Shown here piece after piece: positions 6,968 through 52,600 of a stretch of DNA of 62,649 bases. The stretch comes from a virus (taxonomy: Duplodnaviria; Caudoviricetes), in the IMG/VR virus record IMGVR_UViG_3300034101_000324, positions 1 to 62,649 of that record; one strand, written 5' to 3'. The notes below the pieces were generated by a model. The model saw only the letters and a list, made by a program, of their open reading frames with translations, ran no database searches and had not been told where the DNA came from. The position numbers were made by a program, and so were the translations under genes. Position 1 is the first letter of the stretch. Every line of letters begins with the position of its first letter.

Positions 6968-6984
6968 TCCTGACAATGTCAGGA
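6968..6984. promoter_or_regulatory. 17-bp palindrome, copy 1 (TCCTGACAATGTCAGGA)
   Basis: Contains the stop of 6979-7428 and the SD of the next gene. Confidence 0.9.
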
Positions 6985-7428
6985 CTGTGGTTGTCCCTTG
7001 ATAGTCAGAAAGACTTCCATTGATAGAGTTATTGCGTATCTGTTCCTCACTCTCCACCCGATCTCTCGCAGTATCTCGGGGCAATAGTTCTTGTACGTCC
7101 ATAGGATTTCCTCGTAGTCCTCTGTCGTGTGGTGCATCCAAGGCTTCATCGTCACAGGGGGTTGCCCATTGCCTAGCGTGTTTGATCGGTGTAACTCGTC
7201 CCAGTCAAAACTGTTAATGAAACCAAGGGCTGTCTTGATCTCATCAGGCAATGTCTCGTCTGTGAAACGCCTCTTCATACCCTGTCCCATATACAACTCA
7301 TACACATCGCCGTTGTGTTCACACAGCACACGTATACGGTTGTCCTTCAAGTTCAACGGCTCCATGACCGCATCACTTCGACAGGATGTAGAGCGGAGTC
7401 CTACCGATTCGGTAGTGCTGTAGGCCAA
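6979..7428 (-). CDS. Hypothetical protein (true start may be ATG 7365)
   Basis: ORF in the early operon; its stop lies within the palindrome. Confidence 0.7.
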   Translation of the reverse strand: MAYSTTESVGLRSTSCRSDAVMEPLNLKDNRIRVLCEHNGDVYELYMGQGMKRRFTDETLPDEIKTALGFINSFDWDELHRSNTLGNGQPPVTMKPWMHHTTEDYEEILWTYKNYCPEILREIGWRVRNRYAITLSMEVFLTIKGQPQS

Positions 7429-8401
7429 TCGCTTCGATGCTCTCCCAGTATCTCGGCTCGCTCACGTCGGGCATATCTGCTTGTGTATTGGTGTGCGCCT
7501 TGAGCATGGTCAGAGCAATGTTCAGTTCAGAGGAAATGTCGTCGGGTATGTCGTTCATAGTCTTGTATCGCTTGAATGGCACGACAGGTACGCCGTAATT
7601 GAATTCAGTCTCTGATGGCATACTGCCTGTCTTGCGATAGGTGTCTATTGCTACTTGAATAGCATGGTAAGAGACCGCGCCAAGTGTCACCCCGCCAAGG
7701 GAGTTCGGGATGAGTAGCCACTTGTCCGTAGTAAAGTACGCAGCGACACGATCCATTATGTCGTTAAACTTCCGTACCTCTCCCATGTGATCAAGGTATA
7801 CACCACGCAGACGTTGAGCCTGCGCTGGCGGGATCTCGTATTTGTCCTCGCTGAATTGCGCCAAGATCAATTCGGTAATAAGTTCCCGATCCACACTTGC
7901 CTCGGGTTTAGCCATCGCTTGCCATCCACCGGCAAAGTTTTCGAGCATCAGGGAAAGCACACTGCGAAATATGTCGCTAGGTGCGGTCTGTGCCCTACGT
8001 AGGTCACTCATCAGCGATGCCTTTGCATCATGCCTAGAATCAGGACGCAAGTTATTAGCCAGATATCGCGGATTGACACTCTCCATACGGTTTGAATAGT
8101 GATATGTAGTAGTGGCGTCCATACCAACTAAGAAATTATCCGCCGACATGAATCTGTATTCATCGCCAACACCATTCTTGACGATGGCGCAAACACTAAA
8201 GCCCCCGTCAGTCATCATGTGAATGAGTTTCTCACCTCCGTTATGAAACGCACCAACCTTGGCCTTTCGCTCAGTAGTTGCATACGCAGCCAGAACAACC
8301 GGCCACATCTCTGACTTGATAACTGCTGTTCGCTCTGCCGGATCAACCGTGTCCAAGAACACATCGTTGACATCGACTTGAATCTTTACTCGCTTAGCCA
8401 T
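7373..8401 (-). CDS. Hypothetical protein
   Basis: 342-aa ORF with AAGGAGG SD. Confidence 0.85.
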   Translation of the reverse strand: MAKRVKIQVDVNDVFLDTVDPAERTAVIKSEMWPVVLAAYATTERKAKVGAFHNGGEKLIHMMTDGGFSVCAIVKNGVGDEYRFMSADNFLVGMDATTTYHYSNRMESVNPRYLANNLRPDSRHDAKASLMSDLRRAQTAPSDIFRSVLSLMLENFAGGWQAMAKPEASVDRELITELILAQFSEDKYEIPPAQAQRLRGVYLDHMGEVRKFNDIMDRVAAYFTTDKWLLIPNSLGGVTLGAVSYHAIQVAIDTYRKTGSMPSETEFNYGVPVVPFKRYKTMNDIPDDISSELNIALTMLKAHTNTQADMPDVSEPRYWESIEAIGLQHYRIGRTPLYILSK

Positions 8402-8429
8402 GACTTATGCCTCCTTAGTTTTATCGACT

Positions 8430-8446
8430 TCCTGACATTGTCAGGA
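8430..8446. promoter_or_regulatory. 17-bp palindrome, copy 2 (TCCTGACATTGTCAGGA)
   Basis: Abuts the stop codon at 8447. Confidence 0.9.
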
Positions 8447-9706
8447 TTATTCTTTGACCATCACCTTGCGACCATGCGGCGGGGTGAACCCACGGCTCTG
8501 CGTTACAAGCCACAGCGTCGGGCAAGCAACGTCCCACTTAACATTCGGCTCCACGTGGCCGTCCGTGAACACGATCACACCGTCTGCATCAATGTGTCGC
8601 TCGTTCATGTACTCGCTCACACAAGAGACGCGAGTGCCGCCACCACCCACAGGCTTGAGCAACGTGGCGATGTTGGCGTAGTTCTCAATCTCAAACCGCT
8701 GCTCTGCGTGAACGCGAGTGTCCCACCACAGCACGATGACCGACTCTGGTGGATACAACTCACACAGGTTGGAGATACGCGCTGCAACGCGGGCGATCTG
8801 CTTATCGTCGATGCTGCCTGACGTGTCGATGGCAAACACCATGCGACCCACCGTCTCGCTGTACGGGGACGGCAGATACAAGTCATCAGCCAAGCGGCGA
8901 CGATTCAGACGCGAGTACGTGTACTCGTCCACGCCACGCATGACGCCAGACCAGAAGTCATCAAGCACATCAGACCATGCGATCTCCGGCTCCATCTGAT
9001 CCTTGATTACGCGAGGGATGTCTACACCAAACTTCCCTGCCAAGAGGCCGCCCTGCTGCAAGCCTTCGTTGATCTTGCGCTCCAGTTCGCGCTGCTGATC
9101 TGGCGTGAGTTTGTTACCACCCTTGCCATCCTTGCCGTCCTGACCCTCGTAGTCGTGCTTGTCGAGCGGCTGACCACGCTGCTGCGTACCCTTGTTACCC
9201 GACTTCTTGGGCAGACCCGGATCGCTCGGCTGATTTTTCGGCTGCTTCTCACGCTCCTGCCAGAGATAGTCAAAGACTTGTCTCACCGACCAGTCATGGA
9301 ACATCGGATCATACAGACCACCGTCCGGCAACTTGGCTAGTGTCTTGTCCTTGAGATTCATGATCACATCGTTGACCACGAAATCCATCGCTACGTTGGC
9401 TAACATCGGATCCTTTGACGCCAAGTCCTTGTGACGTGGGATATGCTTGAGCAACTTGTGCAGATTCTCATGCAGCACAAGGCCACACGTCTCTTCAAGT
9501 GTCAGGCCATTCAAAAACTCCCTGCCGTAGTACGTGTTCAGCCCATCGGTACAGGCCGTAGGTATGTTGTCATCTCCATCGACGATCTTGGTATCGCCTA
9601 GAAGAATGATGCCCGAATACAGGCACGTCTCGGGATGACGCATCAATCGGATGTGCGCCTTCTTCAACTTCAACTCTGCATCCATAACTTGAACTGCTGC
9701 GTTCAT
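8447..9706 (-). CDS. Metallopeptidase (DUF2201-like) + vWA domain protein
   Basis: TACTDG, HENLH (HExxH), MIDAS IDTSGSI, GGGGT, VFTDG. Confidence 0.9.
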   Translation of the reverse strand: MNAAVQVMDAELKLKKAHIRLMRHPETCLYSGIILLGDTKIVDGDDNIPTACTDGLNTYYGREFLNGLTLEETCGLVLHENLHKLLKHIPRHKDLASKDPMLANVAMDFVVNDVIMNLKDKTLAKLPDGGLYDPMFHDWSVRQVFDYLWQEREKQPKNQPSDPGLPKKSGNKGTQQRGQPLDKHDYEGQDGKDGKGGNKLTPDQQRELERKINEGLQQGGLLAGKFGVDIPRVIKDQMEPEIAWSDVLDDFWSGVMRGVDEYTYSRLNRRRLADDLYLPSPYSETVGRMVFAIDTSGSIDDKQIARVAARISNLCELYPPESVIVLWWDTRVHAEQRFEIENYANIATLLKPVGGGGTRVSCVSEYMNERHIDADGVIVFTDGHVEPNVKWDVACPTLWLVTQSRGFTPPHGRKVMVKE

Positions 9707-9882
9707 ATCACTAACTCCTCTTGCTTAACATCCACAGTAATACCCATTTCCTTGATGCGCTTCAGATGCCCAATGTCAAACGTCATCCGTCCCATCAGGT
9801 TGGCAAACTGCTGCGCCAGTAGATTCACGGGATAGAATCGCACCGTCCCGTATAAGTTTTTCTGTTCAACTACCATTTCCAT
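9703..9882 (-). CDS. 59-aa hypothetical protein (not in ORF track)
   Basis: GGAGGTG SD; MEMVVEQKNLYGTVRFYPVN...; coupled to the next gene. Confidence 0.7.
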   Translation of the reverse strand: MEMVVEQKNLYGTVRFYPVNLLAQQFANLMGRMTFDIGHLKRIKEMGITVDVKQEELVI

Positions 9883-9894
9883 GACTCACCTCCG

Positions 9895-10986
9895 TTAGAT
9901 CAACAACTCATAGTTGGACTTCGCCCAGTCCTTGATCTCGTTATTCTTGATAGCCAACTTGCTCACCCGCTTGGACTGCAAGGCCATCGTGAAGAACACG
10001 CTCTGCACCTCTGCGCTGTTAATGCGCTTAACGAACTTCATGAACGCTGCGAGATCGTCCTGCGTATCGATAGTGTCGATTGCATTGAACATCATCATGA
10101 ACAACGCTGCGGGTTTCTCTGGAATCCTGACGTTGTCAGGATCAGCAATAACATTCTTAATCGCTACCAACTCACCCGACAGAGACATGACTGCCGTCAT
10201 CAACTCAGCCGCAGCCGCACCGATAGTACCGGCGAGTGATGCCTGTGTGAGATTGACACCCAACCGCTCACGTTTGGTCACGATGTTGTGACACTTGGCG
10301 AGACTGCGCGGCGAGACGAACGACAACGCCTTGCGATTCGGATTGAAGATGTACGGATTGTCTTCCTGCCCACCGTCCAAGTAACTCGCAAGCATCCGTG
10401 GGTGCATCGCCACACAAGCACGAATCTCGGCAGCGATGTTGTTATCAGACGCCCATGCGTTCCACTCGGTAGCATTCGGCTTACGCAAGTTATAGATGGT
10501 GACGCGATTACCTGCGTGCGCCAACATACTGTCACCCACACCGTCGCTTGCATTGTTACTTGTTGCAAAGATGATTGAGCCAGGATGTGTCTTGTCCAGA
10601 TCCTTGTCACCCACGCAATGCTCAAGCATCAAGCGAGTCCACATTGTCTGGAGCAACTTCGGAGTCTTCATAAACTCGTCGAGCATGATGACCTTCGGCT
10701 TCGGGCTGTCGAGCATGAACAAGTCAGAGACGATCTGTAGTAACTTCGTCCTGTCATTGTCAGGAACACTCATCGCCGTGTCGCCAATGTCTTTAACAGG
10801 ACAGTCCACGTAGATGTAGTCGTACCCATCACCTAGTTCAGCCTTAAGAGCCTTGAGCAATGTCGACTTGCCGCAGCCCGGCTCGCCCTTGATGACAGCG
10901 GTGTTAGTCGTACCCAATTCCAAGATGGCGGTCATCGCCTCTTTCAATGAGATGGGGTTGTTGAATTCGATTGTGTTAGTAGCCAT
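9895..10986 (-). CDS. MoxR/CbbQ-like AAA+ ATPase
   Basis: Walker A GEPGCGKS, Walker B IMLDEF, ATSN sensor, SPRS. Confidence 0.88.
   Translation of the reverse strand: MATNTIEFNNPISLKEAMTAILELGTTNTAVIKGEPGCGKSTLLKALKAELGDGYDYIYVDCPVKDIGDTAMSVPDNDRTKLLQIVSDLFMLDSPKPKVIMLDEFMKTPKLLQTMWTRLMLEHCVGDKDLDKTHPGSIIFATSNNASDGVGDSMLAHAGNRVTIYNLRKPNATEWNAWASDNNIAAEIRACVAMHPRMLASYLDGGQEDNPYIFNPNRKALSFVSPRSLAKCHNIVTKRERLGVNLTQASLAGTIGAAAAELMTAVMSLSGELVAIKNVIADPDNVRIPEKPAALFMMMFNAIDTIDTQDDLAAFMKFVKRINSAEVQSVFFTMALQSKRVSKLAIKNNEIKDWAKSNYELLI
10125..10141. promoter_or_regulatory. 17-bp palindrome, copy 3, intragenic (TCCTGACGTTGTCAGGA)
   Basis: Exact arms; read as PDNVR in the ATPase. Confidence 0.85.
10749..10765. 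promoter_or_regulatory. Palindrome variant, 1 mismatch (TCCTGTCATTGTCAGGA)
   Basis: Intragenic; read as PDNDR. Confidence 0.65.
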
Positions 10987-11013
10987 GACTTTGCTTTACC
11001 TCTGTTGTTGAAA

Positions 11014-11916
11014 TTACAGACCAAACTTCGACAGGATGTCGTCCACGCCTTCCTTCACAACGGTACGCTTGGTATCGCTGTTACGCAGTTGGTCGATGGT
11101 GACTCCGTCCAATACTCGTAGCAGATCACGCCGCGCATCCTCCAAGCGCGTGTCGTTAGTCAGGTTGAACTCGGCAAACGTGTTGCATAACTCCATCGCG
11201 TCAGTCAGCGTCGACTCGTACATCTTGCGCCGCTTGACCTTGATCTCACCGTCCTCCATGACCGTCTCGCTGTCGCAGCAATGTGAGAACGACTGCAATA
11301 CCTTGATCAACTGATCCTGCTGCTTGCTGTGAATCTCGTTGATGATGTCGCGTGTCTGCTGCTCGAAGTTGTTACGCAAGTCATCGGCCAGATCGTTGGC
11401 GATAGTCACTCGGTAGTCGCCCTCTGGGATGTTCATTGTCTGGATGATGACTTTGAATCTGCTCCTGACCTCGTCAGGAGTCGGGTAATCGTCCTTGTTG
11501 AACATATCGCCCTGCACGAACGCCTCGTTGCTGATCGCGCTTGGCATGACGGTAATAAACTTCTCTAGTAACTCTTCAGATCGCGCCTTGCGATCTTGGA
11601 TCTCGCCCATGACTGGAGCGATGCGCGGCGTGGGCAGATAGCCCCACTCGCCGTCCCACGGATAGGTAATACGTTGTACAAAGTTGTACCAAGTCTGCCT
11701 GTCGTTCAGGAGTGCGCGCAATTCGGGTACGTCGGCAAAGAGTTGCTTGGTGTATCTCCCTGCGTTGCGAGCGGCCTTCTTGTTGGCCGTGACCTCATCG
11801 CTGATGTCACGATCCTGCTTCGTCGCAGTCCAGACCTTGACCTTGGCGCGGAGCAAGATACCGCCCGTTGCCAGCGATGTGATGTGTTCGGGTTGCTTTA
11901 ACAAATTAGATTCCAT
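11014..11916 (-). CDS. DUF3150-like protein
   Basis: YLPTPRI...YPTPDEVRSRF pattern; typical position upstream of AAA and vWA genes. Confidence 0.65.
   Translation of the reverse strand: MESNLLKQPEHITSLATGGILLRAKVKVWTATKQDRDISDEVTANKKAARNAGRYTKQLFADVPELRALLNDRQTWYNFVQRITYPWDGEWGYLPTPRIAPVMGEIQDRKARSEELLEKFITVMPSAISNEAFVQGDMFNKDDYPTPDEVRSRFKVIIQTMNIPEGDYRVTIANDLADDLRNNFEQQTRDIINEIHSKQQDQLIKVLQSFSHCCDSETVMEDGEIKVKRRKMYESTLTDAMELCNTFAEFNLTNDTRLEDARRDLLRVLDGVTIDQLRNSDTKRTVVKEGVDDILSKFGL
11463..11479. promoter_or_regulatory. 17-bp palindrome, copy 4, intragenic (TCCTGACCTCGTCAGGA)
   Basis: Exact arms; read as PDEVR. Confidence 0.8.
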
Positions 11917-11938
11917 GACAGTCTCCGTTAGTAAGTTG

Positions 11939-11955
11939 TCCTGACAATGTCAGGA
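11939..11955. promoter_or_regulatory. 17-bp palindrome, copy 5 (TCCTGACAATGTCAGGA)
   Basis: Lies between the promoter at 11979-12007 and the SD of the DUF3150 gene. Confidence 0.9.
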
Positions 11956-11978
11956 GTGAATTCCCACTCTACATACAT

Positions 11979-12007
11979 ATTATAACATAAGTTGCTATTT
12001 AAGTCAA
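11979..12007 (-). promoter_or_regulatory. sigma70 promoter PE3
   Basis: TTGACT-N17-TATAAT with TGn extended -10. Confidence 0.9.
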
Positions 12008-12011
12008 CAGT

Positions 12012-12296
12012 TCAAGCAAACAAAAAGAACAACACCGCACCCGTAAGTGCGGTAACGAACCCATAGGCAAAGCCTAGTTTGAACACCTTCTTACCGAACT
12101 TGACCGCAGCCTCGTCAATCTCGGGCTTGATGCTGTTGGTGAATTCCTCCACCACCTCGTCCATTAACTCACGCTTGATCGCTGCACGCATCGACTGCTC
12201 ACGCAACAGGCGTAACTCTTCCTCGTCACGCTGTTGATCCGCGTGCCACTGGGCTTGATCGTCGGTAAACCATTCTTCGTCTCTTGTTTTAGCCAT
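12012..12296 (-). CDS. Hypothetical protein with C-terminal TM helix
   Basis: AAGGAGGTG SD; hydrophobic C-terminus. Confidence 0.75.
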   Translation of the reverse strand: MAKTRDEEWFTDDQAQWHADQQRDEEELRLLREQSMRAAIKRELMDEVVEEFTNSIKPEIDEAAVKFGKKVFKLGFAYGFVTALTGAVLFFLFA

Positions 12297-12297
12297 G

Positions 12298-12426
12298 TCA
12301 CACCTCCTTAATCGTCCACTTGATTCGCGGGTTCATACGCTTGCGCCCCGTCCAATACGGCACAGCCCACTCGGTATCTGTCTCCACACAAATCAGCCGC
12401 TTGCCCAAATACACTTCCATCCTCAT
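12298..12426 (-). CDS. 42-aa hypothetical protein (not in ORF track)
   Basis: MRMEVYLGKRLICVETDTEWAVPYW...; ATGA overlap with the upstream gene. Confidence 0.6.
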   Translation of the reverse strand: MRMEVYLGKRLICVETDTEWAVPYWTGRKRMNPRIKWTIKEV

Positions 12427-12644
12427 CGGTAAAACCCTCCCTTGTTGTTGATACCTTTCAAGTCCTCAAGGTTAGTCACCTTGATGTAGTTGCTCTTGTG
12501 CATCGGCACGACCGTATGTTTGACCTGACGGGCATACTCCTGCCCGCAAGGTAGGCACGAACCGAATCCCGCCATGACCCTGCGTGGATCAACTGGGGTG
12601 TACATACCTTTGGTCACGCACGCTCGGCAAAAATAGGTACTCAT
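12423..12644 (-). CDS. Small zinc-ribbon protein (start revised to ATG 12644)
   Basis: GGAGG SD; CRAC...CLPC. Confidence 0.75.
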   Translation of the reverse strand: MSTYFCRACVTKGMYTPVDPRRVMAGFGSCLPCGQEYARQVKHTVVPMHKSNYIKVTNLEDLKGINNKGGFYR

Positions 12645-12655
12645 CCAAGCCTCCT

Positions 12656-12672
12656 TCCTGACGCTGTCAGGA
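12656..12672. promoter_or_regulatory. 17-bp palindrome, copy 6 (TCCTGACGCTGTCAGGA)
   Basis: Directly abuts the SD of 12644. Confidence 0.9.
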
Positions 12673-12789
12673 CTATCGTTGATACAACTAAACACCCACG
12701 CGACCTCGGGGTTACCAAGGCCGCTAGGCTGCTCACTCGCTCATCGCGGCTCACAACTTTGTAGGCAGATACTCGGAGCTACACGACAG

Positions 12790-12806
12790 TCCTGACGTTG
12801 TCAGGA
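12790..12806. promoter_or_regulatory. 17-bp palindrome, copy 7 (TCCTGACGTTGTCAGGA)
   Basis: Exact arms, extended by a flanking G/C pair. Confidence 0.9.
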
Positions 12807-13217
12807 CAAGTTATGGTTCACACTCCTACCGCTGCCGGACATACATTGCCTGTCCGTACCGGCTATGGATCGCGGGTCTAGCCTTTCGCCGCTCTGACCG
12901 TACTCTGCACTTCACCTACGGTTTTACACTCCGCACAGGACTATCCGTGTCCTTACCGCTTGGCTTCGCAGTCGCCCATCCGTCACCGCCCCACCTCGCT
13001 CGTAATAAATACGGTCAACATGGGATTGATATGGCTGACAGAATTTACAGGCCGCAAACTACTCAACGACTTGTCACCTAGGCGATCCTATGTGCAGTCT
13101 CGTACTGCACCACGACCCCGATTGATACTCGGAGCACCGCTGTTTGTCAGACAGCGTCACGGCTCTGCCACCGCGCCTTCACCTACTATCGGCTTACGAC
13201 TTGTAGGATCGTTGTTG

Positions 13218-13234
13218 TCCTGACACCGTCAGGA
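13218..13234. promoter_or_regulatory. 17-bp palindrome, copy 8 (TCCTGACACCGTCAGGA)
   Basis: About 40 nt downstream of the PE2 start. Confidence 0.9.
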
Positions 13235-13279
13235 CTCGTGGAACCCGCCTCGTTTGGCGAAATTTCCACTATAGACTAT

Positions 13280-13308
13280 ATTATAACAAATGTAGTCTTT
13301 TAAGTCAA
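13280..13308 (-). promoter_or_regulatory. sigma70 promoter PE2
   Basis: TTGACT-N17-TATAAT with TGn; shares TTGACTTAAA...TGTTATAATAT with PE3. Confidence 0.9.
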
Positions 13309-13368
13309 GTAATAAGCAAATTATTTTGTCTGGGCACGATGGACTGGGGGTGCGTGGTTTATACGTTG

Positions 13369-13385
13369 TCCTGACAATGTCAGGA
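13369..13385. promoter_or_regulatory. 17-bp palindrome, copy 9 (TCCTGACAATGTCAGGA)
   Basis: About 60 nt upstream of the PE2 -35 element. Confidence 0.9.
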
Positions 13386-13414
13386 AATGCGCGGTTTTTC
13401 GGCAGCGTACACGC

Positions 13415-13826
13415 TAAGTGCTTGATTAGGTTAGGGATAATTGGAAAGTGGTAATATGTTGTACGCTTTGTACGCAAAATGAAAGTTGTAATAACGTACA
13501 AGATTTTGGGTTTTGAGGCAGAGGAGTGGTTCTGTAAGTTATTGATTTTATTATTATTATTATTATTTATTTATAAGAAGAAGAGGTAAAAAGAGGAGTT
13601 TGTACGCTTGTACGCTGTTTTTTGAGGGAGGACGGCCGGTAAAAAATTTTCCAAGTTTTTTAAAAAATTTTGCGCTTGCCGAAGAAGACAAACTGGCTCC
13701 TCCGTCCCCTAGGTGCGAACAAGCGTACAAGCGTACAAATCGACACTTTTCCCTTTAAGATCAAAGGCTTGGCTTGTTCCCGTCAACTTAAGTGTGAGTA
13801 CAAGCCAAAAATGTAAGTCATTGATT
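13415..13826. promoter_or_regulatory. Three IHF consensus sites (13415-13427, 13535-13547, 13814-13826)
   Basis: TAAGTGCTTGATT, TAAGTTATTGATT and TAAGTCATTGATT each match the reverse complement of WATCAANNNNTTR. Confidence 0.7.
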
Positions 13827-13856
13827 TTTAAGGAAACGCGAAAAATTTTGTACGCT
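13459..13856. repeat. TTGTACGC iterons with an 18-bp inverted repeat (13599-13616 / 13722-13739) and an AT-rich (TTA)n tract
   Basis: Tandem pairs at 13459/13468 and 13600/13608, inverted pair at 13723/13731, single copy near 13848. Confidence 0.8.
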
Positions 13857-13938
13857 ATTGCAACTTTCAAAGTGCAACTTAGCGCATGGGCTAGGGCTAG
13901 AAAACTGGTATCGCGTCATCTAAGCAAACCGATTCTGA

Positions 13939-13955
13939 TCCTGACACTGTCAGGA
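13939..13955. promoter_or_regulatory. 17-bp palindrome, copy 10 (TCCTGACACTGTCAGGA)
   Basis: Exact arms; non-coding region. Confidence 0.9.
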
Positions 13956-14165
13956 AGCAGGCGAGTCTTGGCGTGGGCTAAGCAAACCGATTCTGATGTC
14001 GTCAAACTTTGGGTCACGCACAAGAAGAGCGGTGTAGACGCATGGCCTGTAACTTGTACATGGGCTAGGGCTAAGGCTTTGGGCTCGGGCTTAGGCTTGG
14101 CCTAGCAAGAACTGGTCTCATATAGAACTGGTATCCGTGGAACTGGCTTCGCGGAGCGCAGACGC

Positions 14166-14200
14166 AAAAAAGCCCCGCCAAGCATGAGCCTGACGGGGCT
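14166..14200 (-). terminator. Intrinsic terminator of the PE1 transcript
   Basis: AGCCCCGUCAGGC-UCAU-GCUUGGCGGGGCU followed by a U run. Confidence 0.85.
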
Positions 14201-14204
14201 GTGG

Positions 14205-14243
14205 TTAGAACGGGAATTCCAACTGTTCGGGTTCAGCGCACAT
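14205..14243 (-). CDS. 12-aa micropeptide MCAEPEQLEFPF
   Basis: GGAGG SD 5 nt before ATG; lies between the first early gene and its terminator. Confidence 0.5.
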   Translation of the reverse strand: MCAEPEQLEFPF

Positions 14244-14296
14244 GGCAACCTCCGTTGAAGTTATAGATGAGGGGCGGCTCGCGCCGCCCCCCGTAG

Positions 14297-14313
14297 TCCT
14301 GACAGTGTCAGGA
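14297..14313. promoter_or_regulatory. 17-bp palindrome, copy 11 (TCCTGACAGTGTCAGGA)
   Basis: Supplies the TGA stop of 14308-15135. Confidence 0.9.
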
Positions 14314-15135
14314 ACCCGCCCGATCAGCCGCCGCGATGATTTCATCGGCCAGAGCAGGATCAAACGCCGCCTCCAACATGATGGAACAAAGTGCCGTCCA
14401 TTGACCCTCAGACACCACCGAATCGTCGCCGTTGTCCTTGGCATATCGCGCGCGCTTCTTGGTTCCCGCCTTGTGCAGACCGTTGAGCAGATCGGCGAAA
14501 TCCTGTTTCGCACCACCCGCACGACCCGACGCATCGGCTTTCCAACCGCGAGACAACGCCTGATCAACATCATTGTTGATCCAGTCGCGCATACCCTGAC
14601 CCTTGCCATCCGGCCGCTCACCAACCGCCGTGCCGCGCATCCAAGCCTTGACACCGTTCGGCTTTTCAGCAACCGACGCGAGAGTCTTGAGATCGACGCC
14701 TAGCGCGAATGCCGCCGTGAAAGTGTGATTCACAGGCAAAGCAGACTCGACCGGTGTCCACTTTTTAGCCAGGCGAGACCACACGCGAACCGGCAGATAC
14801 TTGTCGTCGTCGCCCACCTTGTGCACCTCGACCGAATAGTGCGCGCGAGTCTTGGCCGAATCGGTAGCCATGGTCTTGAGCACCGCGTGCAACGCCTTAC
14901 CGATTTCGGACTCACGATCGAACCGCTCGACCCCGTCGCGCTTGATCACCGGAACACCCGCCGCGAGGCAGAGCGCCGCGAAATCAGACTGAAACGACTC
15001 GGTGTCGACCGACGTAGAAATCTGAACGTCGATAGCCTTGACCGCGACCGCCTCAGCCTTGGCGAGAATATCGGCAGCCATTGACGGGTTGACCGACTTC
15101 GAGACCGCGACAGCAACTTTGTTTGACTTAGCCAT
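14308..15135 (-). CDS. First early gene, 275-aa hypothetical protein (start revised to ATG 15135)
   Basis: GGAG SD; has its own promoter and terminator; GC-rich codons. Confidence 0.8.
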   Translation of the reverse strand: MAKSNKVAVAVSKSVNPSMAADILAKAEAVAVKAIDVQISTSVDTESFQSDFAALCLAAGVPVIKRDGVERFDRESEIGKALHAVLKTMATDSAKTRAHYSVEVHKVGDDDKYLPVRVWSRLAKKWTPVESALPVNHTFTAAFALGVDLKTLASVAEKPNGVKAWMRGTAVGERPDGKGQGMRDWINNDVDQALSRGWKADASGRAGGAKQDFADLLNGLHKAGTKKRARYAKDNGDDSVVSEGQWTALCSIMLEAAFDPALADEIIAAADRAGS

Positions 15136-15164
15136 GATATGTATAACTCCACTAGATGATGTAT

Positions 15165-15181
15165 TCCTGACATTGTCAGGA
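15165..15181. promoter_or_regulatory. 17-bp palindrome, copy 12 (TCCTGACATTGTCAGGA)
   Basis: Lies between PE1 and the SD. Confidence 0.9.
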
Positions 15182-15210
15182 GTCAGCGAGAACACCCCGC
15201 CGACGATTCT

Positions 15211-15239
15211 ATTATACCACTTCTGTTATACTTTGTCCA
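15211..15239 (-). promoter_or_regulatory. sigma70 promoter PE1
   Basis: TGGACA-N17-TATAAT with TGn. Confidence 0.8.
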
Positions 15240-46664: not shown

Positions 46665-49600
46665 ATGCCGGTTTACAAAATCCGTGGACCGGACGGTAAA
46701 CTTTATAGATACCGAGTAGACGCCCAAGATGTTGACCAAGAAGACGTATTAAAGTCTTTTAATCAACAGTTTTCTATTCGGTCTGCGCTTAGTGCTTTTG
46801 AACCCCCCAAGGAACAGGCGGGGTTTATTGGCTCGTTTAAGGATGCCGTTACTTCTCTTGGTCTGGCTGATGAAGCAGCGGCTTATGCTGCCAATCCTAC
46901 GGAAGAAAATCGCCAAGAGTTCCTTAAGAAAGCCGAGTCCAAGTACAAGTCCGTTGGCGGATTTGGTAAGGGCGATAACTGGGAAGCCTTTAAGGAACTG
47001 CTCGGTGGTTCACTCGGTGCGCTCGTTGCTCCTATCGTAGGTGGTGTAGCCGGTGCTGCTGCTGGCCCACTCGGTGGTATTGCTGGCTTCGCTGGTACAA
47101 GTGCTAGTCAATACAGTATCGCTAATCTCCGCCGTCAGGCTGAGCAACAACAAGCCGCTGCTGAAGCGGGTGAAGTTGTACCTGAATTGTCTCTGGGCAA
47201 AGCCGCCGCTGCATCGCTGGCACAAGCAGGACTTGATGTTGTCCCCGGTGCATTGATCTTAAAGGGTTTGAGTAAGTTCCCTGTCGCTCAGCGTTTGCTT
47301 ACCAAAGACGAGACATCAAGCAAAGCCGCACAGGTTCTTATTGATGCTTTTAATAAGGGCAACCTTTCTCTCAAGGGCAACGTAGTTAAGGGCGTGGGTC
47401 TTGGCGTTGCATTTGAAGTCCCGCAAGAAATTGCTCAGCAAGCCTTGGAGCGTTGGCAGGCAGGCTTGCCGTTGGATGACGATGAGGCCAAGGAAGAGTT
47501 CAAACAGGCTGCGATTGGTGCAGCACTCCTTGGTGGCGGATTTGGCGCGATTGGTGGGGCTGCTACGTATCGCGGAGAGCAGGCAGAAAAAGCCAGAGCA
47601 GCAGAAGCAGAGGCTGCTTCACGGCAAGAGGAAGAAATTGCGCCTCCTCCACCTCCGCCTATCACTTCTGAAGAACCGGTTACAACTGAAGATCCCGCGT
47701 TTCAACTGCAAGAACAACTGGCAGGGCTTGACCAACTACGTCAGCAAATAGACGAGGAAAGGCGGCAAGCCGAAGAAAGGCAGCAAGCTGAACAAATAGC
47801 ACAGCCCGAGCGTCGTCAATACAGTGCCCAGACGTTGCGTGAAGCAGCCGAGGCAGAGGCTCTTGCACCGCGTGATGAAGACGAACCTCCTCTATACACG
47901 CCTCCTACACGGGACGAAGAAGAACGAGTAATCCCCACTCCGTCTCGTACACCGGAGGAAGAGGCTGAATTAACTGAAGACATGTTTGCTGACGCTCGTG
48001 AATACGATGCGGAACGCGCTGCTACTGCGGGGGTCATGGAAGGTCTGGGTGCGCCCACGGAGGGTGGCATCCCTGCGGAGATGTTTGAGGTTCCGGCTGT
48101 TACTCCTGTTGAGCCAGCCACGCCTGCTCCGCGCGAGATTGCGCTTGAAGTTATCAAAACGACCCCGACTATCAAGGCTGTTGCTGAAGCAACAGGACTT
48201 AACCAACCCCAAGCCGCTGCATTGATGCGGCAATTTGTTGACGAGGGGCTGCTTGAACGAAAAGGAAGCAAGTTTAAGTTCGTTACTCCCGAACTTACCG
48301 CTCAGCCGGAGGCTACCGATGTATCAGGCGCAACAGTTACTACTACAGAGACTGACGGTGGAGCAGGTCGAGGAAGCCCTGACCTGTTTACATTGGGACC
48401 GCCAGCCGGAGAACTCGGTGCTCCGCCAACTAGAGGCGCAGGACTGGCTGCTACTGGCGACGTTACTGAACGGGTTGATGACCGAGAAAGAGATGTATCC
48501 CCTACACTAGAGGCTGACCTTGAGGGTCTTGGCCTTGAAGGGTTTGGTGCGCCTACCGATACCGGTTTGCCTCCTCGTAAACTTGAGGGCTACCTTGCTG
48601 AAAGGCAGAAAGTCCGCGATCTTAAAGATCGTGCCGTTGCTTTCATCCGCGAGACTGGTAAGGGTTCAGCCACGGAACTTCAAGCGGCGCTTAGTATCCC
48701 GCTCAGTCAGGCCAAGTCGTTGCGTAGTGCGCTCCTTGGTAGCGGTCAGGTAGTACAGAAAACCAACGTCAAGGCTGCAAAAACTGCCGGTCGCAGTTAC
48801 TTCGTCGTTGAAGGGGATTACACACCATCTGGTCAATTTGCTCCCCGCGAGGCGGCTGTAACTGAAACACGCCGAGAGCCTGTTGCAGAGACGGGTCTTG
48901 AAGAACTTGGTCTTGAGGGCGCACCCGCCGAGGCTGGTCTACCGCCCCAGATGCTTGATAGTTACTTCGCTGAACAACGTCTTGAAGAGGCACGGCAGCG
49001 TGCCACAGGTAGATTGCTTGGCGAAGGCACTGTATCTGAGACCGAACGTATTCAGCGTGAGGCAGATAAGGCTGCTGAACTTGCTCCTGAACCTAAACTT
49101 AAGCCGACTTGGAAAGGTACGCCAAAAGAAGTTTTGGCCGAAGAAACTCGCCGTGCATTTGCCGATCTTGAAGCAGCGCAGGCAGCGGCCAAGAGAAAGC
49201 CGGAAGCAGCAGGGCAGCAAGGTCTTGATCTTGTGGGTGGCAAGGGCCGTCCCACGCTCAGCGATGCAGAGAAGCGCATTGTTGCAGACATAAAGTCGGC
49301 GGCAGAATTTCTTGTTCAGACAGGAAAAATGTCTGTTGATCAAGTTGATAAATTCAATGCCGAAATGCGTAAGCCTGCCCCTGATGTAGGCAAGTTACGG
49401 AAGATGGTTGATGACATATCAACCAAAGAGACAGACATTGAAGTTGAAGAACAGCAGGATCTTGATGAGTCAGGATTCATCATCTCTGAAAACTTCAAAG
49501 AAGACGCTGATAACTCAAGTGCGCTTAGTGATGAGCGCGGTGCGGGAGAAACAGGACGGCCACGAGCAGGGCGTCCGCTAGACTTTAACGAGCAGATTAT

Positions 49601-52600
49601 TTACTTCCGCAACAAGGCGCTCAATAGGTTCAAGAAGCGTAAGAGTCTGACGAAGGGATTAAAGGCTGACACTGTCAGGTCGTTGATTGGCAAGTTCACG
49701 GCTGGCTGGAAGAATCCGCCCAACTTTATTGTTGTGCAGTCGCACCTTGATCTGCCGCAAGAACTTGATTCCGAGACTAACGAAGACAGTATGGGTTTGG
49801 CGAGTGGTAATGATGTTTACATCATTGCAGACAACATCGGTCTGCCGTCTGATCTGAAGGCTGTGGTATTCCACGAATCACTCGGTCACTACGGTCTTGA
49901 GCAGTTGTTTGGGGAGAGACTTCTCCAGACTATGCTGGATATCTACAACACGAACAATCGTGTTCGTGCCGATGCCGATGCGTGGCTTGAAGAGAACCCG
50001 AACGTATATCCGGAGAGCGAGTTCACACAGGATGAGCGCAGAGCGGCGGCAGCGGAAGAAGTCTTTGCCGAGATGTCAGAAGGTGGCCCGATTGCCAACT
50101 CGCAGTATCGCGCTGCGTTCAACCGTGTTGCTGCCCTGATTCGTAAGTTCGCCCGTGCCTTGAGCCAACTGGTTGGCCGAGACGTTGCTTACAGCAACCG
50201 CGAAATCCAAGACATCATCACGCAGGCTCACAACAAGGTTATCAGCGGAAAGACCCGCTTTGTACCGCGTTACAACAACATCCGGTACATGAAGAAGTGG
50301 TACAACCGCACGCTGACTAATGCAATGGGGCAAGCCCAGAACGCACCGGAAGCAACCCGAGAGATACTAACTGGCACGGTCGACTCGCTCAGTAATGTGC
50401 CTAACTCGTTGCGTAACGCGAAGCTGGCTACGTTCTCAATGCACCATATGATGCAGTTATTTGAGAAGTACGCACCGGCTTTCCGTGCCCTGAACAACTT
50501 GGTCGAAAGAAAAGCCTACGACTCCACAAGAGAGATGGTGGAGTTCACCAAGCAGGCAAGTAAGTACCGAGAGGTTCTGCGTAACAACAGTCAGTTCGTG
50601 GATGAGTTCAACAAGATCGCGCACCTAATTAACCTGTCTCAGGCTCCGGTGCTTGAGGAACAGTTGAACGCGAACGGAGACTTTGAGCGTTTCGTCCCGA
50701 ACGTAGCAGCGCAGCGGATGCGTAATATCCCTGCGAATAGCGCGGCGTATAGCGCCCTGACACCTGATGAGAAAGTTCTGCACGAAGCAGTCAATCGGTT
50801 CTATGCGTTGCCGACTGATGTTCAGCAGGTAATTGCTGACATATACACCGATTACAGGAACTACAGCGACAATGCGTTCAAGATTAAACTGACGCAGTTG
50901 ATGAACAGGCTCCCTGCCAACATCATTGCAGGCATTAAGGCCAACTTCCAGAACAACCGGTTGAAGTTCTATCTGCCCCTGCCACGCGAGGGTATGTACA
51001 AACTTGTCTATTTGGATAACAACGGCACGCGAGTCAGTCAGTTGTTTGACAGTATGGCTGGGCGGGATAACGCCGAGAGGCAGGTGCGTGCTCAAGGCAT
51101 GACTGTCCTTGATGAACCCAAGGTGCTGCGCCAGAGAAATTATGGCGACTCTAATTTGCCGCCGGGATTGCTCAAGGAACTTCTTGAGAACGTGCAGGAC
51201 TCCCTGACTAGAGCCGGTGTAGCCACTGCCGATATTGAGAACGCCAAAGAGACGGTGTTTGATACGTTCGTCGAGTTCATGCCGGGTGCTTACGGCAACG
51301 ATCTGCGCCAAGAAATAAGCTCGCGTAAGACTTTCATGCTCAACAATACGATGTATTACGGACGCCTTGGTTACGATGAAGATGTCATGGCTGCGTATGA
51401 GAAGCGCATTCCGGGCATCATTTATCAAATCAACAATCTTAAGTACACGATGCCCTTTGAGAAGGTCAGGAAACTAATCAAGGAGCAGTTGAACACGTAT
51501 CGCGCCAACAAGGGCGCACCTGCTTATGCAGGGTTGCCGGATCTAGATGATCCGTACCTTGAGTCGCTGCGTGAGGACTTGGATTCTCGAGTCACGTTTG
51601 CCAAGAAGTTGCAGCAATACTCGCCGTACGTTTACACCATCTCCAAGGCTAACTACATCTACAGTATTGCGCTGAACATCTCTTCAGCCCTGATTAACAC
51701 GACCATTCTTCCCATGATGGCGTGGCCGACACTCGCCGCCAAGTATGGCCCTGTTAATGCTTCGCGTGCCGTGGGGCAGGCAATTCAGTTGTTCTTCAAG
51801 CACTCGTACCGCGATCCGCAAACCGGTAGGTTGAGCTTTGACTACAAGCGTTTGGCCGATATGCCCGCCTCGTTTGGTGGCGACAATATGCCTGCTGCTT
51901 ACGCGCAGACGGCGCACGGACGTGAGTTCAATCGCTTCTTCCGTACGTTGTTGGCTAGATCTGTAGTGGGAACTGCTGCTGAACAAGAACTGATTCAGGC
52001 AGAGAACATTACTGTTCCGGGCTATGAGGGATTGAGTGCCAAGGTGAACTTGGCAATGAGCTACGTGTTCCGTAGTTCAGAGCGTATGAACCGTGAAGTC
52101 ACGGCGCTCGCTGCCTATATGCTGGCTCGTAACATCGACGTAGATGGGCAGGCATTTGATCCAAACAGGCAGGGGGTAAGTGTAGGCAAAGCATCGGAAG
52201 AGGCGATTCGTCTTAACTACGATGTCAACGGAGCCACCACGCCTGAGACGAACAGCCGGTTGTACCAGACGGACATTGGTCGTATCGCTCTTACGTTCAG
52301 AACTCACGCTCTGAACATGATCTTGAACCTTGCCTTCTCGTTCAATCAGGCGATTGAGACTATTAATGCGGGTCAGCCGAACGAAGCCGAACGTAGATTA
52401 GTGCGCTCTGTCGCACGCAAGAAATTGCTGTACATCTTTGGCTCTACGTATATGTTGGCAGGCATCAAGGGTCTGCCCCTCTTTGGCGCTGCCGAAGTAC
52501 TTGCATCTCTCATAATGGGCGATGACGACGAACCGTATGATCTTGAACAAATGGTGTTGGATTCAGTAGGCACGTTGGGATTGAACGGCCCGGTCAACGA

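What the first reader, a model, noticed from the sequence alone, without database searches (positions are those of the whole stretch)
14205..14243. 12-aa micropeptide that is almost purely a sliding-clamp-binding motif
Seen: GGAGG-N5-ATG encodes MCAEPEQLEFPF-stop. It is on the first early transcript, after a GC-rich hairpin with a GCGA tetraloop (14271-14290) and just before the terminator. Established: beta-clamp partners use QL[S/D]LF or the hexameric QLxLPL motif (Hda type), and short peptides carrying these motifs inhibit replication. Inference: a minimal host-replication inhibitor or clamp decoy. This is plausible because the phage carries its own PolA and primase-helicase.
Basis: partly seen in the sequence, partly recalled or inferred. 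Interest (0 to 1): 0.75.

Follow-up and report, generated by a model that had tools for sequence, protein, structure and literature searches.

The report
Phage mini-gene encoding only a clamp-hook tail
A conserved 12-codon phage gene encodes nothing but a short tail that many unrelated phage proteins, including primases and helicases, carry at their end, and that tail looks like the hook bacterial proteins use to grip the DNA sliding clamp.

Summary
On the minus strand, GGAGG-N5-ATG opens a 12-codon ORF (14243..14205, MCAEPEQLEFPF) between a GC hairpin and an intrinsic terminator.

It is not a chance ORF. Five nucleotide alleles (four peptides, M-x-x-[DE]-P-[EQ]-QLEFPF) sit in the same hairpin-to-terminator slot in phages whose neighbouring gene is only 26-100% identical. 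All are 12 codons long and all have a Shine-Dalgarno site.

The slot is a swappable cassette. Of 20 distinct alleles, 16 encode an ORF ending in Q-x-x-[FL]-x-F-stop. Most belong to a 56-61-aa protein family whose flexible tail (P-K-Q-x-E-F-x-F) is its best-conserved part. The micro-ORF is that tail alone.

The same tail ends about ten unrelated phage ORF types in IMG/VR, including a DnaG-type primase, a VapE-like helicase and a PD-(D/E)XK-like nuclease. This was 33 hits, 31 closing long frames, against 10 and 1 for a reversed control.

A co-fold of the 61-aa protein with E. coli beta clamp puts the tail in the canonical cleft (0.79 against 0.00 for controls).

Binding, translation and inhibition remain untested. 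An RNA hairpin overlaps the last codons.

The parts
15211..15239 (-). Sigma-70-like promoter (TGGACA, 17 nt, TATAAT, TG extension) for the leftward unit
   Evidence: 11 of 12 matches. This is a consensus match only; activity is not shown.
15165..15181 (.). 17-bp palindrome TCCTGAC-N3-GTCAGGA between the promoter and the start of the upstream gene
   Evidence: 14 copies in the window against 0.01 expected.
14308..15132 (-). Upstream gene of 274 aa from the conserved ATG (MAKSNK...). A GTG at 15195 would give 295 aa. Function unknown.
   Evidence: No Pfam or PHROG family, no PDB match, only unnamed viral clusters in the Atlas. Relatives share 25-100% identity.
14297..14313 (.). Copy of the same palindrome, overlapping the stop codon of the upstream gene
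14269..14292 (-). GC-rich hairpin of 10 bp with a GCGA loop. It is the conserved left border of the cassette slot.
   Evidence: It is kept in relatives down to 25% identity of the neighbouring gene.
14249..14253 (-). Shine-Dalgarno GGAGG, 5 nt before the ATG
   Evidence: All five alleles have an SD-like site 5-7 nt before the ATG, in three different leader sequences.
14205..14243 (-). 12-codon ORF MCAEPEQLEFPF plus TAA
   Evidence: Alleles are listed.
14204..14223 (-). Predicted 8-bp RNA hairpin covering the third base of codon 7, codons 8-12, the stop and one further base
   Evidence: 95% of cells paired, and 2 pairs changed on both sides among 5 alleles.
14165..14200 (-). Intrinsic terminator (13-bp stem, 4-nt loop, T run). 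It is the conserved right border of the slot.
   Evidence: Two stem pairs show compensatory changes and 100% of cells are paired.
14109..14146 (-). Three CCAGTTC repeats directly after the terminator. They are iteron-like, and relatives carry more tandem copies.
   Evidence: L068 has a longer tandem run.

Best explanation
The 12-codon ORF is a real, translated mini-gene on a short leftward unit: promoter, 274-aa gene, hairpin, mini-gene, terminator. It lies in a cassette slot that related phages fill with different small genes by exchange at the conserved hairpin and terminator. Its product is the isolated C-terminal tail of a family of 56-61-aa phage proteins. The tail has the form P-x-Q-x-E-F-x-F with a free carboxylate, and it is most likely what was left after the globular part was deleted. 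This tail is a portable short linear motif that also ends unrelated phage proteins, among them primases, helicases and a nuclease. It has the shape of a hexameric bacterial clamp-binding motif: Gln at position 1, a hydrophobic residue at position 4, Phe at position 6, C-terminal, with an acidic lead-in. The most likely mode of action is that the free peptide occupies the protein-binding cleft of the host beta sliding clamp. There it would compete with host polymerases, the clamp loader and Hda. The phage's own replication uses PolA and a primase-helicase, with no clamp gene found, and so would not need the clamp. What is shown: the anatomy, the conservation, the homology to the family tail, the wide spread of the tail, and a controlled co-fold pass for the 61-aa relative. 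What is inferred: translation, binding by the 12-mer, the host clamp as partner, and inhibition.
For: (1) Five nucleotide alleles encoding four peptides were found. Each has 12 codons and an SD-like site 5-7 nt before the ATG, although the leaders differ. There are no indels inside the ORF, while slot length varies (70, 72 and 76 nt).

(2) These alleles sit beside upstream genes that are 100, 82, 36 and 26% identical to the window's.

(3) In codons 4-7, outside the RNA hairpin apart from the paired third base of codon 7, 5 of 6 minimal changes fall on third codon positions (read).

(4) All 5 of 5 IMG/VR hits to P-[EQ]-QLEFPF-stop lie in this slot.

(5) Of 20 distinct hairpin-to-terminator alleles, 16 end in Q-x-x-[FL]-x-F-stop: 5 micro-ORF, 10 of the small-protein family, and 1 other ORF ending QLRLNF.

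(6) The family tail is under protein-level selection. Across 8 distinct tail alleles, all 8 changes in the A, P, K, Q, E, F and F codons are synonymous third-position changes. P54, Q56 and F61 are 3 of the 7 invariant columns among 18 sequences that diverge to 29% identity.

(7) The AF2 model (pLDDT 85.7) has a beta-beta-alpha-beta core at residues 2-50. The tail, residues 51-61, is outside any strand, with pLDDT about 65.

(8) Co-fold with DPO3B_ECOLI scored 0.79, against 0.00 for the best of 3 controls. That mark was reached by 58 of 80 solved complexes and 2 of 110 mismatched pairs. The runs agree in at least 82% of contacts, and partner pLDDT is at least 82. Tail residues 53-59 and 61 touch clamp residues 172, 174-175, 177, 242, 247, 320, 344, 346 and 362-366. 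Arg152, Gly174 and Pro363 are named as cleft contacts in PMC3716654.

(9) A divergent family member (L078; hhalign 85%, E 6e-6) ends in QLDLPF, close to the consensus.

(10) P-K-Q-x-E-F-x-F-stop gave 33 IMG/VR stretches, 31 of which end frames of 40 aa or more. The reversed-order control gave 10 stretches, 1 of 10 ending such a frame. Carriers include a DnaG-type primase, a VapE/DUF5906 helicase, a PD-(D/E)XK-like protein and a TreK-domain protein.

(11) Carrier phages have PolA (2 of 5), PolB (1 of 5) or neither (2 of 5, one of them 100% complete), and none of 5 has a beta-clamp domain. This points to a host hub rather than one phage polymerase.

(12) The window has no clamp domain of four Pfam types.

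(13) From the literature: the hexameric motifs QVELEF, QLVLGL and QLSLPL; the natural motif QLSFF with Phe at position 4; QLELF with Glu at position 3; acidic flanks or a free carboxylate favour binding (passages read). Phage Mu MuC binds the clamp through QHDLF and QPDLF and is lethal when overproduced.
Against: Position 4 is Phe. The review read says known motifs have only Leu or Met there, and that Phe weakened inhibition in E. coli assays. B. subtilis MutS QLSFF is a precedent, with a 1.5-3-fold loss of affinity.

The family consensus keeps P-K before the Gln and Glu at position 3, and lets position 2 vary (H, Y, F, T, L). Clamp motifs do not require this pattern, so the true partner could be another protein.

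Isolated motif peptides bind at 1-210 uM, so a 12-mer would need high levels and would have to survive peptidases.

The co-fold used the 61-aa relative, not the 12-mer, and an E. coli stand-in for an unknown host. Clamp-peptide complexes are solved, so the pass may reflect likeness only.

An 8-bp RNA hairpin overlaps codons 7-12 and shows two both-side changes. The synonymous changes in Gln, Leu and the stop codon therefore do not by themselves prove peptide-level selection.

The final Phe codon and the stop lie in the conserved right flank shared with other cassettes.

One of 20 slot alleles is empty and three carry ORFs without the tail, so the function is dispensable or replaceable.

There is no expression evidence: the contigs of the RNA-library runs did not span the ORF (one, in a run whose RNA label is only a guess, reaches its last 9 nt).
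Confidence: 0.5

Rival explanations
1. The tail is a real, translated short linear motif, but its partner is not the beta clamp. It could be another conserved hub of DNA metabolism or host physiology. Examples are a partner of the SSB C-terminal tip, or a helicase or polymerase contacted the way T7 gp4 and gp2.5 tails contact T7 polymerase (both recalled). The free peptide would compete at that site instead.
For: The invariant P-K (P-E or P-Q in the micro-ORF) before Gln, the invariant Glu at position 3 and Phe at position 4 are not features of the published clamp consensus. All five micro-ORF alleles end in Pro-Phe-COOH, as the SSB tip does (recalled). The tail sits on primases and helicases, which in T7 use C-terminal tails ending in Phe to reach the polymerase (recalled).
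Against: Gln six residues from the end is invariant. That is the hallmark of clamp motifs, not of the SSB tip. The residue before the final Phe varies freely across carriers (H, Y, N, M, A, R, K, E, D, P, V), and there is no acidic run. Carriers occur in phages with PolA, PolB or neither, which argues against one phage polymerase as partner. The co-fold pass places the tail in the clamp cleft.
Confidence: 0.22
2. What is selected is an RNA or translation-coupled element, not the peptide. The small hairpin over the last codons, together with a ribosome stopping 4-6 nt before the terminator stem, would tune termination, read-through into the repeat-rich region downstream, or mRNA 3'-end stability.
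For: The predicted 8-bp hairpin is present in 5 of 5 alleles (6-8 bp). Two of its pairs changed on both sides and 95% of cells are paired, the same level of support as the terminator itself. The stop codon lies 5-7 nt before the terminator in 17 of 19 ORF-bearing slot alleles, including one without the tail.
Against: The hairpin is absent from the tails of the common 61-aa family and from the QLRLNF ORF, which keep the same amino-acid pattern with different codons. One allele (L038) breaks both covarying pairs. The pairing follows partly from the codons themselves, since GAA/TTC and CTA/TAG are reverse complements. This rival does not explain the kept SD, ATG, frame and 12-codon length across three different leaders, nor the same tail on about ten unrelated proteins elsewhere.
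Confidence: 0.13
3. The ORF is an inert remnant of a deleted cassette gene. It has been carried along by recombination of the slot and has no function of its own.
For: The slot is plainly variable. One allele is empty and three have other ORFs. A near-identical phage (L001: 99.5% and 98.5% identical flanks) carries the 61-aa gene instead. The tail DNA of L078 and of the L075 micro-ORF differ at 2 of 23 positions, which fits a deletion origin.
Against: The alleles differ at up to 12 of 39 positions (window against L075, read), yet all keep start, SD, frame, length and the P-x-QLEFPF core. They persist in three lineages whose neighbouring gene has diverged to 26-36% identity.
Confidence: 0.1

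Closest known systems
Hexameric bacterial clamp-binding motifs: Pol IV QLVLGL at the C-terminus, Pol III alpha QVELEF, Hda QLSLPL (passages read in PMC4564189, PMC11139829 and bioRxiv 10.64898/2026.05.27.728225)
   Same: Gln at position 1, Leu at position 2, an acidic or free residue at position 3, hydrophobic residues at positions 4 and 6, Pro at position 5 as in Hda, location at the very C-terminus, and an acidic flank. The relative's tail is predicted in the same cleft.
   Different: Phe rather than Leu or Met at position 4. There is a conserved Pro two residues before the Gln. The motif is not attached to any enzyme or domain: the whole gene product is the motif.
Phage Mu MuC/Mor clamp-binding motifs (PMC12867686; abstract and passages read)
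   Same: A phage protein that engages the host clamp through near-consensus motifs at its termini. Position 2 may be His, as in the 61-aa family. Overproduction is toxic through clamp competition.
   Different: MuC is a 16.5-kDa transcription factor that uses the clamp to activate late promoters. Here there is no effector domain at all, so only occupancy of the site is possible.
Twort Gp168 (described in the review PMC11139829; passages read)
   Same: A small phage protein that inhibits the host clamp early in infection.
   Different: Gp168 blocks the DNA channel, not the protein-binding cleft, and it is a folded protein.
Synthetic clamp-motif peptides and griselimycin (review PMC11139829; passages read)
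   Same: Short peptides that occupy the hydrophobic cleft and block partner binding.
   Different: Those are synthetic, or a non-ribosomal cyclic depsipeptide from Streptomyces. This would be a ribosomally made linear 12-mer encoded by a virus.
C-terminal clamp- or polymerase-binding tails of T4 and T7 replication proteins (recalled, not checked here)
   Same: Portable C-terminal tails ending in Phe, shared by several replication proteins of one phage.
   Different: Those tails bind phage-encoded partners. No clamp gene was found in this window, and the tail here occurs across phages with different polymerases or none.

Membership tests
Bacterial beta-clamp-binding motif (penta- or hexapeptide) | Gln at position 1 | tested here: met
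   Gln is present in 5 of 5 micro-ORF alleles, in 16 of 16 tail-bearing slot alleles, and is invariant in 18 of 18 family sequences.
Bacterial beta-clamp-binding motif (penta- or hexapeptide) | Aliphatic residue, preferably Leu, at position 2 | tested here: met
   Leu in 5 of 5 micro-ORF alleles. Most of the 61-aa family has His, Tyr, Phe or Thr there. His is tolerated in MuC.
Bacterial beta-clamp-binding motif (penta- or hexapeptide) | Leu or Met at position 4 | tested here: not met
   Phe in all micro-ORF alleles. The review states that only Leu or Met occur there and that Phe is weaker. B. subtilis MutS QLSFF is a natural exception. L078 and L010 have Leu.
Bacterial beta-clamp-binding motif (penta- or hexapeptide) | Phe or Leu at position 5 or 6 | tested here: met
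   Phe at position 6 is the C-terminal residue in all alleles.
Bacterial beta-clamp-binding motif (penta- or hexapeptide) | Lies in a flexible, usually terminal, segment | tested here: met
   In the 61-aa relative the tail lies outside the folded core, with pLDDT about 65. The micro-ORF has no other part.
Bacterial beta-clamp-binding motif (penta- or hexapeptide) | Physical binding in the cleft of DnaN, lost on Q, L or F substitution | tested here: inconclusive
   Only a co-fold of the 61-aa relative with E. coli DnaN was run: 0.79 against 0.00 for the best control, with cleft residues contacted. The 12-mer is below the tool's chain size.
Small phage protein family of the slot (56-61 aa, unnamed, no Pfam) | Beta-beta-alpha-beta core (MIVY..., Q29, W33, L37) | tested here: not met
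   The micro-ORF has only 3-4 residues before the tail. No match to the family profile was found elsewhere in the window.
Small phage protein family of the slot (56-61 aa, unnamed, no Pfam) | C-terminal tail P-x-Q-x-E-F-x-F in the same hairpin-to-terminator slot | tested here: met
   Representatives P0022 (RQLEFNF) and P0021 (KQFEFPF) bracket the window's QLEFPF.
SSB C-terminal tip mimic (acidic run followed by Ile-Pro-Phe-COOH; recalled) | Run of acidic residues directly before a hydrophobic-Pro-Phe end | tested here: not met
   Pro-Phe-COOH is present in 5 of 5 micro-ORFs, but only one acidic residue lies in the last five. Across carriers the residue before the final Phe is free.
Leader peptide or attenuator | Short ORF whose translation governs a terminator ahead of regulated genes | tested here: inconclusive
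   The stop codon lies a few nt before the terminator stem. What follows is about 2.2 kb without a long ORF until 11916, and the amino-acid sequence is conserved.

The most novel reading that the evidence does not exclude
P-K-Q-x-E-F-x-F-COOH is an undescribed portable 'clamp hook' that many unrelated phage proteins use to reach the host beta clamp, among them primases, helicases, nucleases and small early proteins. One phage group has reduced it to a free-standing 12-codon gene. Its product would be a natural, ribosomally made competitive inhibitor of the clamp cleft, and the smallest host-takeover effector known.
Probability: 0.4. Interest if true: 0.9.

Novelty: new variant of a known kind. 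Interest (0 to 1): 0.8.

Why it matters
If the tail binds the clamp, three things follow.

First, a gene can consist of a short linear motif and nothing else, and still be kept by selection. That would be a clean natural example of motif-only function.

Second, phages would have their own recognisable C-terminal clamp-hook variant. It could be used to annotate hundreds of unknown phage proteins and to predict which phage replication enzymes depend on the host clamp.

Third, the clamp cleft is an antibiotic target. A natural linear peptide family, with its sequence variation across hosts, would be a ready-made structure-activity series.

If the partner proves to be another protein, the tail is still a widespread and so far unreported phage motif, and it marks an unknown hub of phage-host interaction. 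No paper in the searched library holds any of six tail strings.

Tried and rejected
- blastn of 3 kb around the site against GenBank phages gave no match.
- The upstream 274-aa protein has no Pfam or PHROG family and no PDB relative (best E 0.74). The Atlas gave only unnamed viral clusters.
- Rfam gave two matches, both far below gathering scores.
- Sequencing runs: DNA runs from lake water hold the stretch. Three RNA-labelled runs and one DNA run were laid. The RNA-labelled contigs cover parts of the upstream gene and the terminator but none spans the micro-ORF; one contig of X21 (RNA label only a guess) reaches its last 9 nt. They say nothing on expression.
- Foldseek of the 61-aa model against the PDB gave nothing at E 0.001 or better; the best hit was E 0.13.
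- Host identification failed. TerL relatives sit in MAGs of discordant taxa. The nearest cultured phages are about 50% identical in TerL (Pelagibacter phages, a gammaproteobacterial phage, cyanophages).
- I considered that the 17-bp palindromes might be hairpin promoters for a virion RNA polymerase. I dropped the idea because the 2202-aa ORF matches DarB-like families, not an RNA polymerase.
- Whether the three other slot ORFs (L010, L054, L028 types) form one family is not established: identity is only 20-26%.
- The TreK-domain carrier has cultured relatives, but they match only residues 3-82 and lack the tail. The 71-aa carrier has none.
- The search for related loci with the wide family alignment could not be run because no stretch was conserved enough.
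- Supplementary files of the papers were not consulted. Motif tables there (for example for the Mor/MuC family) could hold variants closer to this tail.

Full report
**What is there.** The window is a complete 62,649-bp virus record with direct terminal repeats. On the minus strand, GGAGG (14253..14249) is followed after 5 nt by ATG (14243). Eleven further codons and TAA (14207..14205) follow, giving MCAEPEQLEFPF.

Upstream lie a 17-bp palindrome that overlaps the stop codon of the preceding gene (14297-14313) and a 10-bp GC hairpin with a GCGA loop (14292..14269). Downstream, four bases after the stop, begins a 13-bp terminator stem with a T run (14200..14165).

The unit starts at a sigma-70-like promoter (15239..15211, 11 of 12 matches). 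It holds only one other gene, a 274-aa protein of unknown function. Rightward from 15555 run terminase and portal genes. PolA, a DUF927 primase-helicase, an SNF2 helicase and a PD-(D/E)XK nuclease lie on the minus strand at 53-62 kb. 'Early' remains an inference.

**Is it more than chance?** A 12-codon ORF alone is not informative, because the window has 1345 ORFs of 10 aa or more. Relatives settle the question.

The hairpin and the terminator are conserved borders of a slot whose content changes from phage to phage. Among all fetched loci that contain both borders there are 20 distinct slot sequences:
- 1 is empty.
- 5 are alleles of the 12-codon ORF.
- 10 encode members of a 56-61-aa protein family.
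- 1 encodes a 68-aa ORF ending QLRLNF.
- 3 encode ORFs with other endings.

Loci cut by contig ends (for example L006, L027, L032, L053, L057, L061) and L076, which shares only the terminator, were left out of this count.

A phage with 99.5% and 98.5% identical flanks (L001) carries the 61-aa gene exactly where the window has the mini-gene. The two are therefore exchangeable cassettes.

**The micro-ORF alleles.** There are five:
- window: MCAEPEQLEFPF
- L005: MRADPEQLEFPF
- L075 and L077: MRCDPEQLEFPF
- L038: MRDDPQQLEFPF
- L043: the same peptide as L038, with different Leu and stop codons

All have 12 codons. All have an SD-like site 5-7 nt before the ATG, although the leaders fall into three unalignable types. 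Their neighbouring genes are 100, 82, 36 and 26% identical to the window's.

The window and L075 ORFs differ at 12 of 39 positions, yet P-E-QLEFPF is unchanged. In codons 5-12 I count at least 7 synonymous changes and 1 non-synonymous change (E6Q).

A scan of IMG/VR for P-[EQ]-QLEFPF-stop found five contigs, all in this slot. The window's own record is left out by the tool.

**A complication.** RNAfold places an 8-bp hairpin over the third base of codon 7, codons 8-12, the stop and one more base. It is present in all five alleles as 6-8 bp. On the alignment, two of its pairs have changes on both sides and 95% of cells pair. The terminator has the same level of support: two compensatory pairs and 100% paired.

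One allele (L038) breaks both covarying pairs. Part of the pairing follows from the codons themselves, because GAA/TTC and CTA/TAG are reverse complements.

The synonymous changes in the Gln, Leu and stop codons therefore cannot be counted as clean evidence for peptide selection. Four pieces of evidence are independent of the hairpin:
- The SD, ATG, frame and length are kept.
- In codons 4-7, 5 of 6 minimal changes are at third positions.
- There is a synonymous TTC/TTT change in the loop.
- There is the evidence from the protein family, described next.

**Where the peptide comes from.** The 61-aa family has few relatives. I found 15 clusters in 5.8 billion proteins. A profile search of 1.84 billion representatives gave 9 hits, 8 of which are small proteins. 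None has a Pfam family.

All end in P-[KRT]-Q-x-[ED]-[FL]-x-F, two of them with one extra residue. Across 18 sequences diverging to 29% identity, only seven columns are invariant, and three of them (P54, Q56, F61) are in the tail.

In eight distinct tail alleles, every change in the A, P, K, Q, E, F and F codons is a synonymous third-position change. Positions 2 and 5 of the hexamer vary freely. These tails do not form the small RNA hairpin.

The AlphaFold model (pLDDT 85.7) has a beta-beta-alpha-beta core at residues 2-50. The tail lies outside it, with lower confidence. No solved fold matches the core.

The window's P-E-Q-L-E-F-P-F falls inside the family's range; compare RQLEFNF in P0022 and KQFEFPF in P0021. 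The tail DNA of the divergent member L078 (ending QLDLPF; hhalign 85%) differs from the L075 micro-ORF at 2 of 23 positions.

The simplest history is deletion of the globular part, leaving a start codon, two or three codons and the tail. This is inference.

**The tail is not confined to this family.** A scan of IMG/VR for P-K-Q-x-E-F-x-F-stop found 33 stretches, and 31 of them close a frame of 40 aa or more. The two exceptions are L095, an 11-residue frame, and L101, which is cut off at the start of its locus and ends like the 345-aa ORF of L096 on the same contig. A control pattern of the same composition in reversed order found 10 stretches, of which only 1 closes such a frame.

Besides the 61-aa family, the carriers are:
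- a 1082-aa DnaG-type primase
- a 499-aa VapE/DUF5906 helicase
- a 239-aa PD-(D/E)XK-like protein
- a 108-aa TreK-domain protein (three loci)
- a 345-aa protein of phrog_3243 (four loci)
- a 221-aa protein
- a 71-aa family (nine loci)
- single ORFs of 87, 74 and 47 aa

I did not test them pairwise for homology. In each case the tail follows a Pro-, Gly-, Lys- or Glu-rich stretch. Cultured relatives of the TreK-domain protein lack the tail. The tail behaves as a portable C-terminal module.

**What it probably binds.** Published clamp-binding motifs are pentameric (QL[SD]LF) or hexameric (Q-phi-x-L-x-L). Examples are the C-terminal QLVLGL of Pol IV, QVELEF of Pol III alpha and QLSLPL of Hda. Gln sits in subsite II and the last hydrophobic residues sit in subsite I. 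Acidic flanks or a free carboxylate help binding (passages read).

QLEFPF fits this pattern except for Phe at position 4. The review says Phe there is weaker in E. coli assays. Phe does occur naturally in B. subtilis MutS (QLSFF), where it costs 1.5-3-fold in affinity.

The verdict was a pass: 0.79, with 0.00 for the best of 3 controls. That mark was reached by 58 of 80 solved complexes and 2 of 110 mismatched pairs. The runs agree in at least 82% of contacts and partner pLDDT is at least 82.

The contacts are tail residues 53-59 and 61 against clamp residues 172, 174-175, 177, 242, 247, 320, 344, 346 and 362-366. This is the canonical cleft as I recall it. Arg152, Gly174 and Pro363 are named as contacts in PMC3716654. 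Because clamp-peptide complexes are solved, the pass shows likeness, not binding.

Two further observations favour a host hub over a phage partner. The window has no clamp domain of four Pfam types. Five carrier phages have PolA (2), PolB (1) or neither (2), and none has a beta-clamp domain.

**How it would work.** A peptide that is only a cleft-binding motif can do nothing but occupy the cleft. It would then compete with Pol III, the clamp loader, Hda and repair polymerases. Phage Mu MuC shows that clamp competition by a phage protein is lethal when strong enough.

Motif peptides alone bind at micromolar affinity. The effect would therefore depend on high expression from the strong SD and on peptide stability. 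Neither is known.

**Rivals.** I weigh three alternatives:
- Another partner for the tail (0.22). The conserved P-K and Glu at position 3 are not explained by the clamp consensus.
- An RNA or translation-coupled role at the terminator (0.13).
- An inert remnant (0.10).

**Known or new.** Clamp motifs, phage proteins that carry them (MuC) and phage clamp inhibitors (Twort Gp168, which blocks the DNA channel) are known. I found no description of this tail variant or of a motif-only gene. None of six tail strings occurs in the searched library. Searches for phage-encoded small clamp binders gave nothing relevant. I rate it a new variant of a known kind, of high interest, with the partner still to be proven.

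Noticed in passing
window 6968-15181 (13 copies) and 60370: The 17-bp palindrome TCCTGAC-N3-GTCAGGA occurs 14 times against 0.01 expected. Copies sit about 30-60 nt downstream of each sigma-70-like -10 hexamer in the leftward region, at gene ends and inside some ORFs. It could be an operator for a phage regulator or a recurring RNA hairpin (7-bp stem, 3-nt loop). It is also conserved in relatives.
   Followed up: partly
window 14109-14146; L068 about 2290-2400: CCAGTTC repeats at a spacing of about 15 nt follow the terminator directly. There are 3 copies here and up to about 6 tandem copies in relatives. They resemble iterons of a replication origin or regulator-binding sites.
   Followed up: no
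window 11917-14170: About 2.2 kb has no ORF of 100 aa or more on the transcribed (minus) strand (one 130-aa frame on the other strand). It holds two repeated promoter-like units (11977-12007 and 13278-13308), several long inverted repeats and duplicated 27-nt blocks (13913-13997). This is unusual for a compact phage genome.
   Followed up: partly
L038 and L043, GC hairpin before the micro-ORF: The hairpin has the same stem, but its loop reads TCGC instead of GCGA. That is the reverse complement, as if the whole hairpin were inverted.
   Followed up: no
protein P0018: An 1882-aa protein matches the core of the 61-aa family (profile positions 7-39) in 9 separate stretches. It may be a repeat protein built from the same small domain.
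   Followed up: no
L070-L074: Close TerL relatives (74-88% identical) are filed in MAGs labelled Fluviibacter, Terrimicrobiaceae, Crocinitomicaceae, 'archaeon' and 'bacterium'. These are phage contigs binned into unrelated genomes, so they are useless for naming the host.
   Followed up: no
window 46665-53273 and 8447-10986: A 2202-aa ORF has a DarB-like C-terminal region (phrog_10089, E 1e-48). Separately, there is a MoxR-like ATPase paired with a DUF2201 metallopeptidase/VWA gene.
   Followed up: no
L082 (47-aa ORF ending PKQLEFNF, in a 104-kb contig): An unrelated large phage has a small tail-bearing ORF followed by a terminator-like GC hairpin with a short T run and a related palindrome (CTGACAACGTTGTCAG). 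The cassette architecture may therefore reach beyond this phage group.
   Followed up: no
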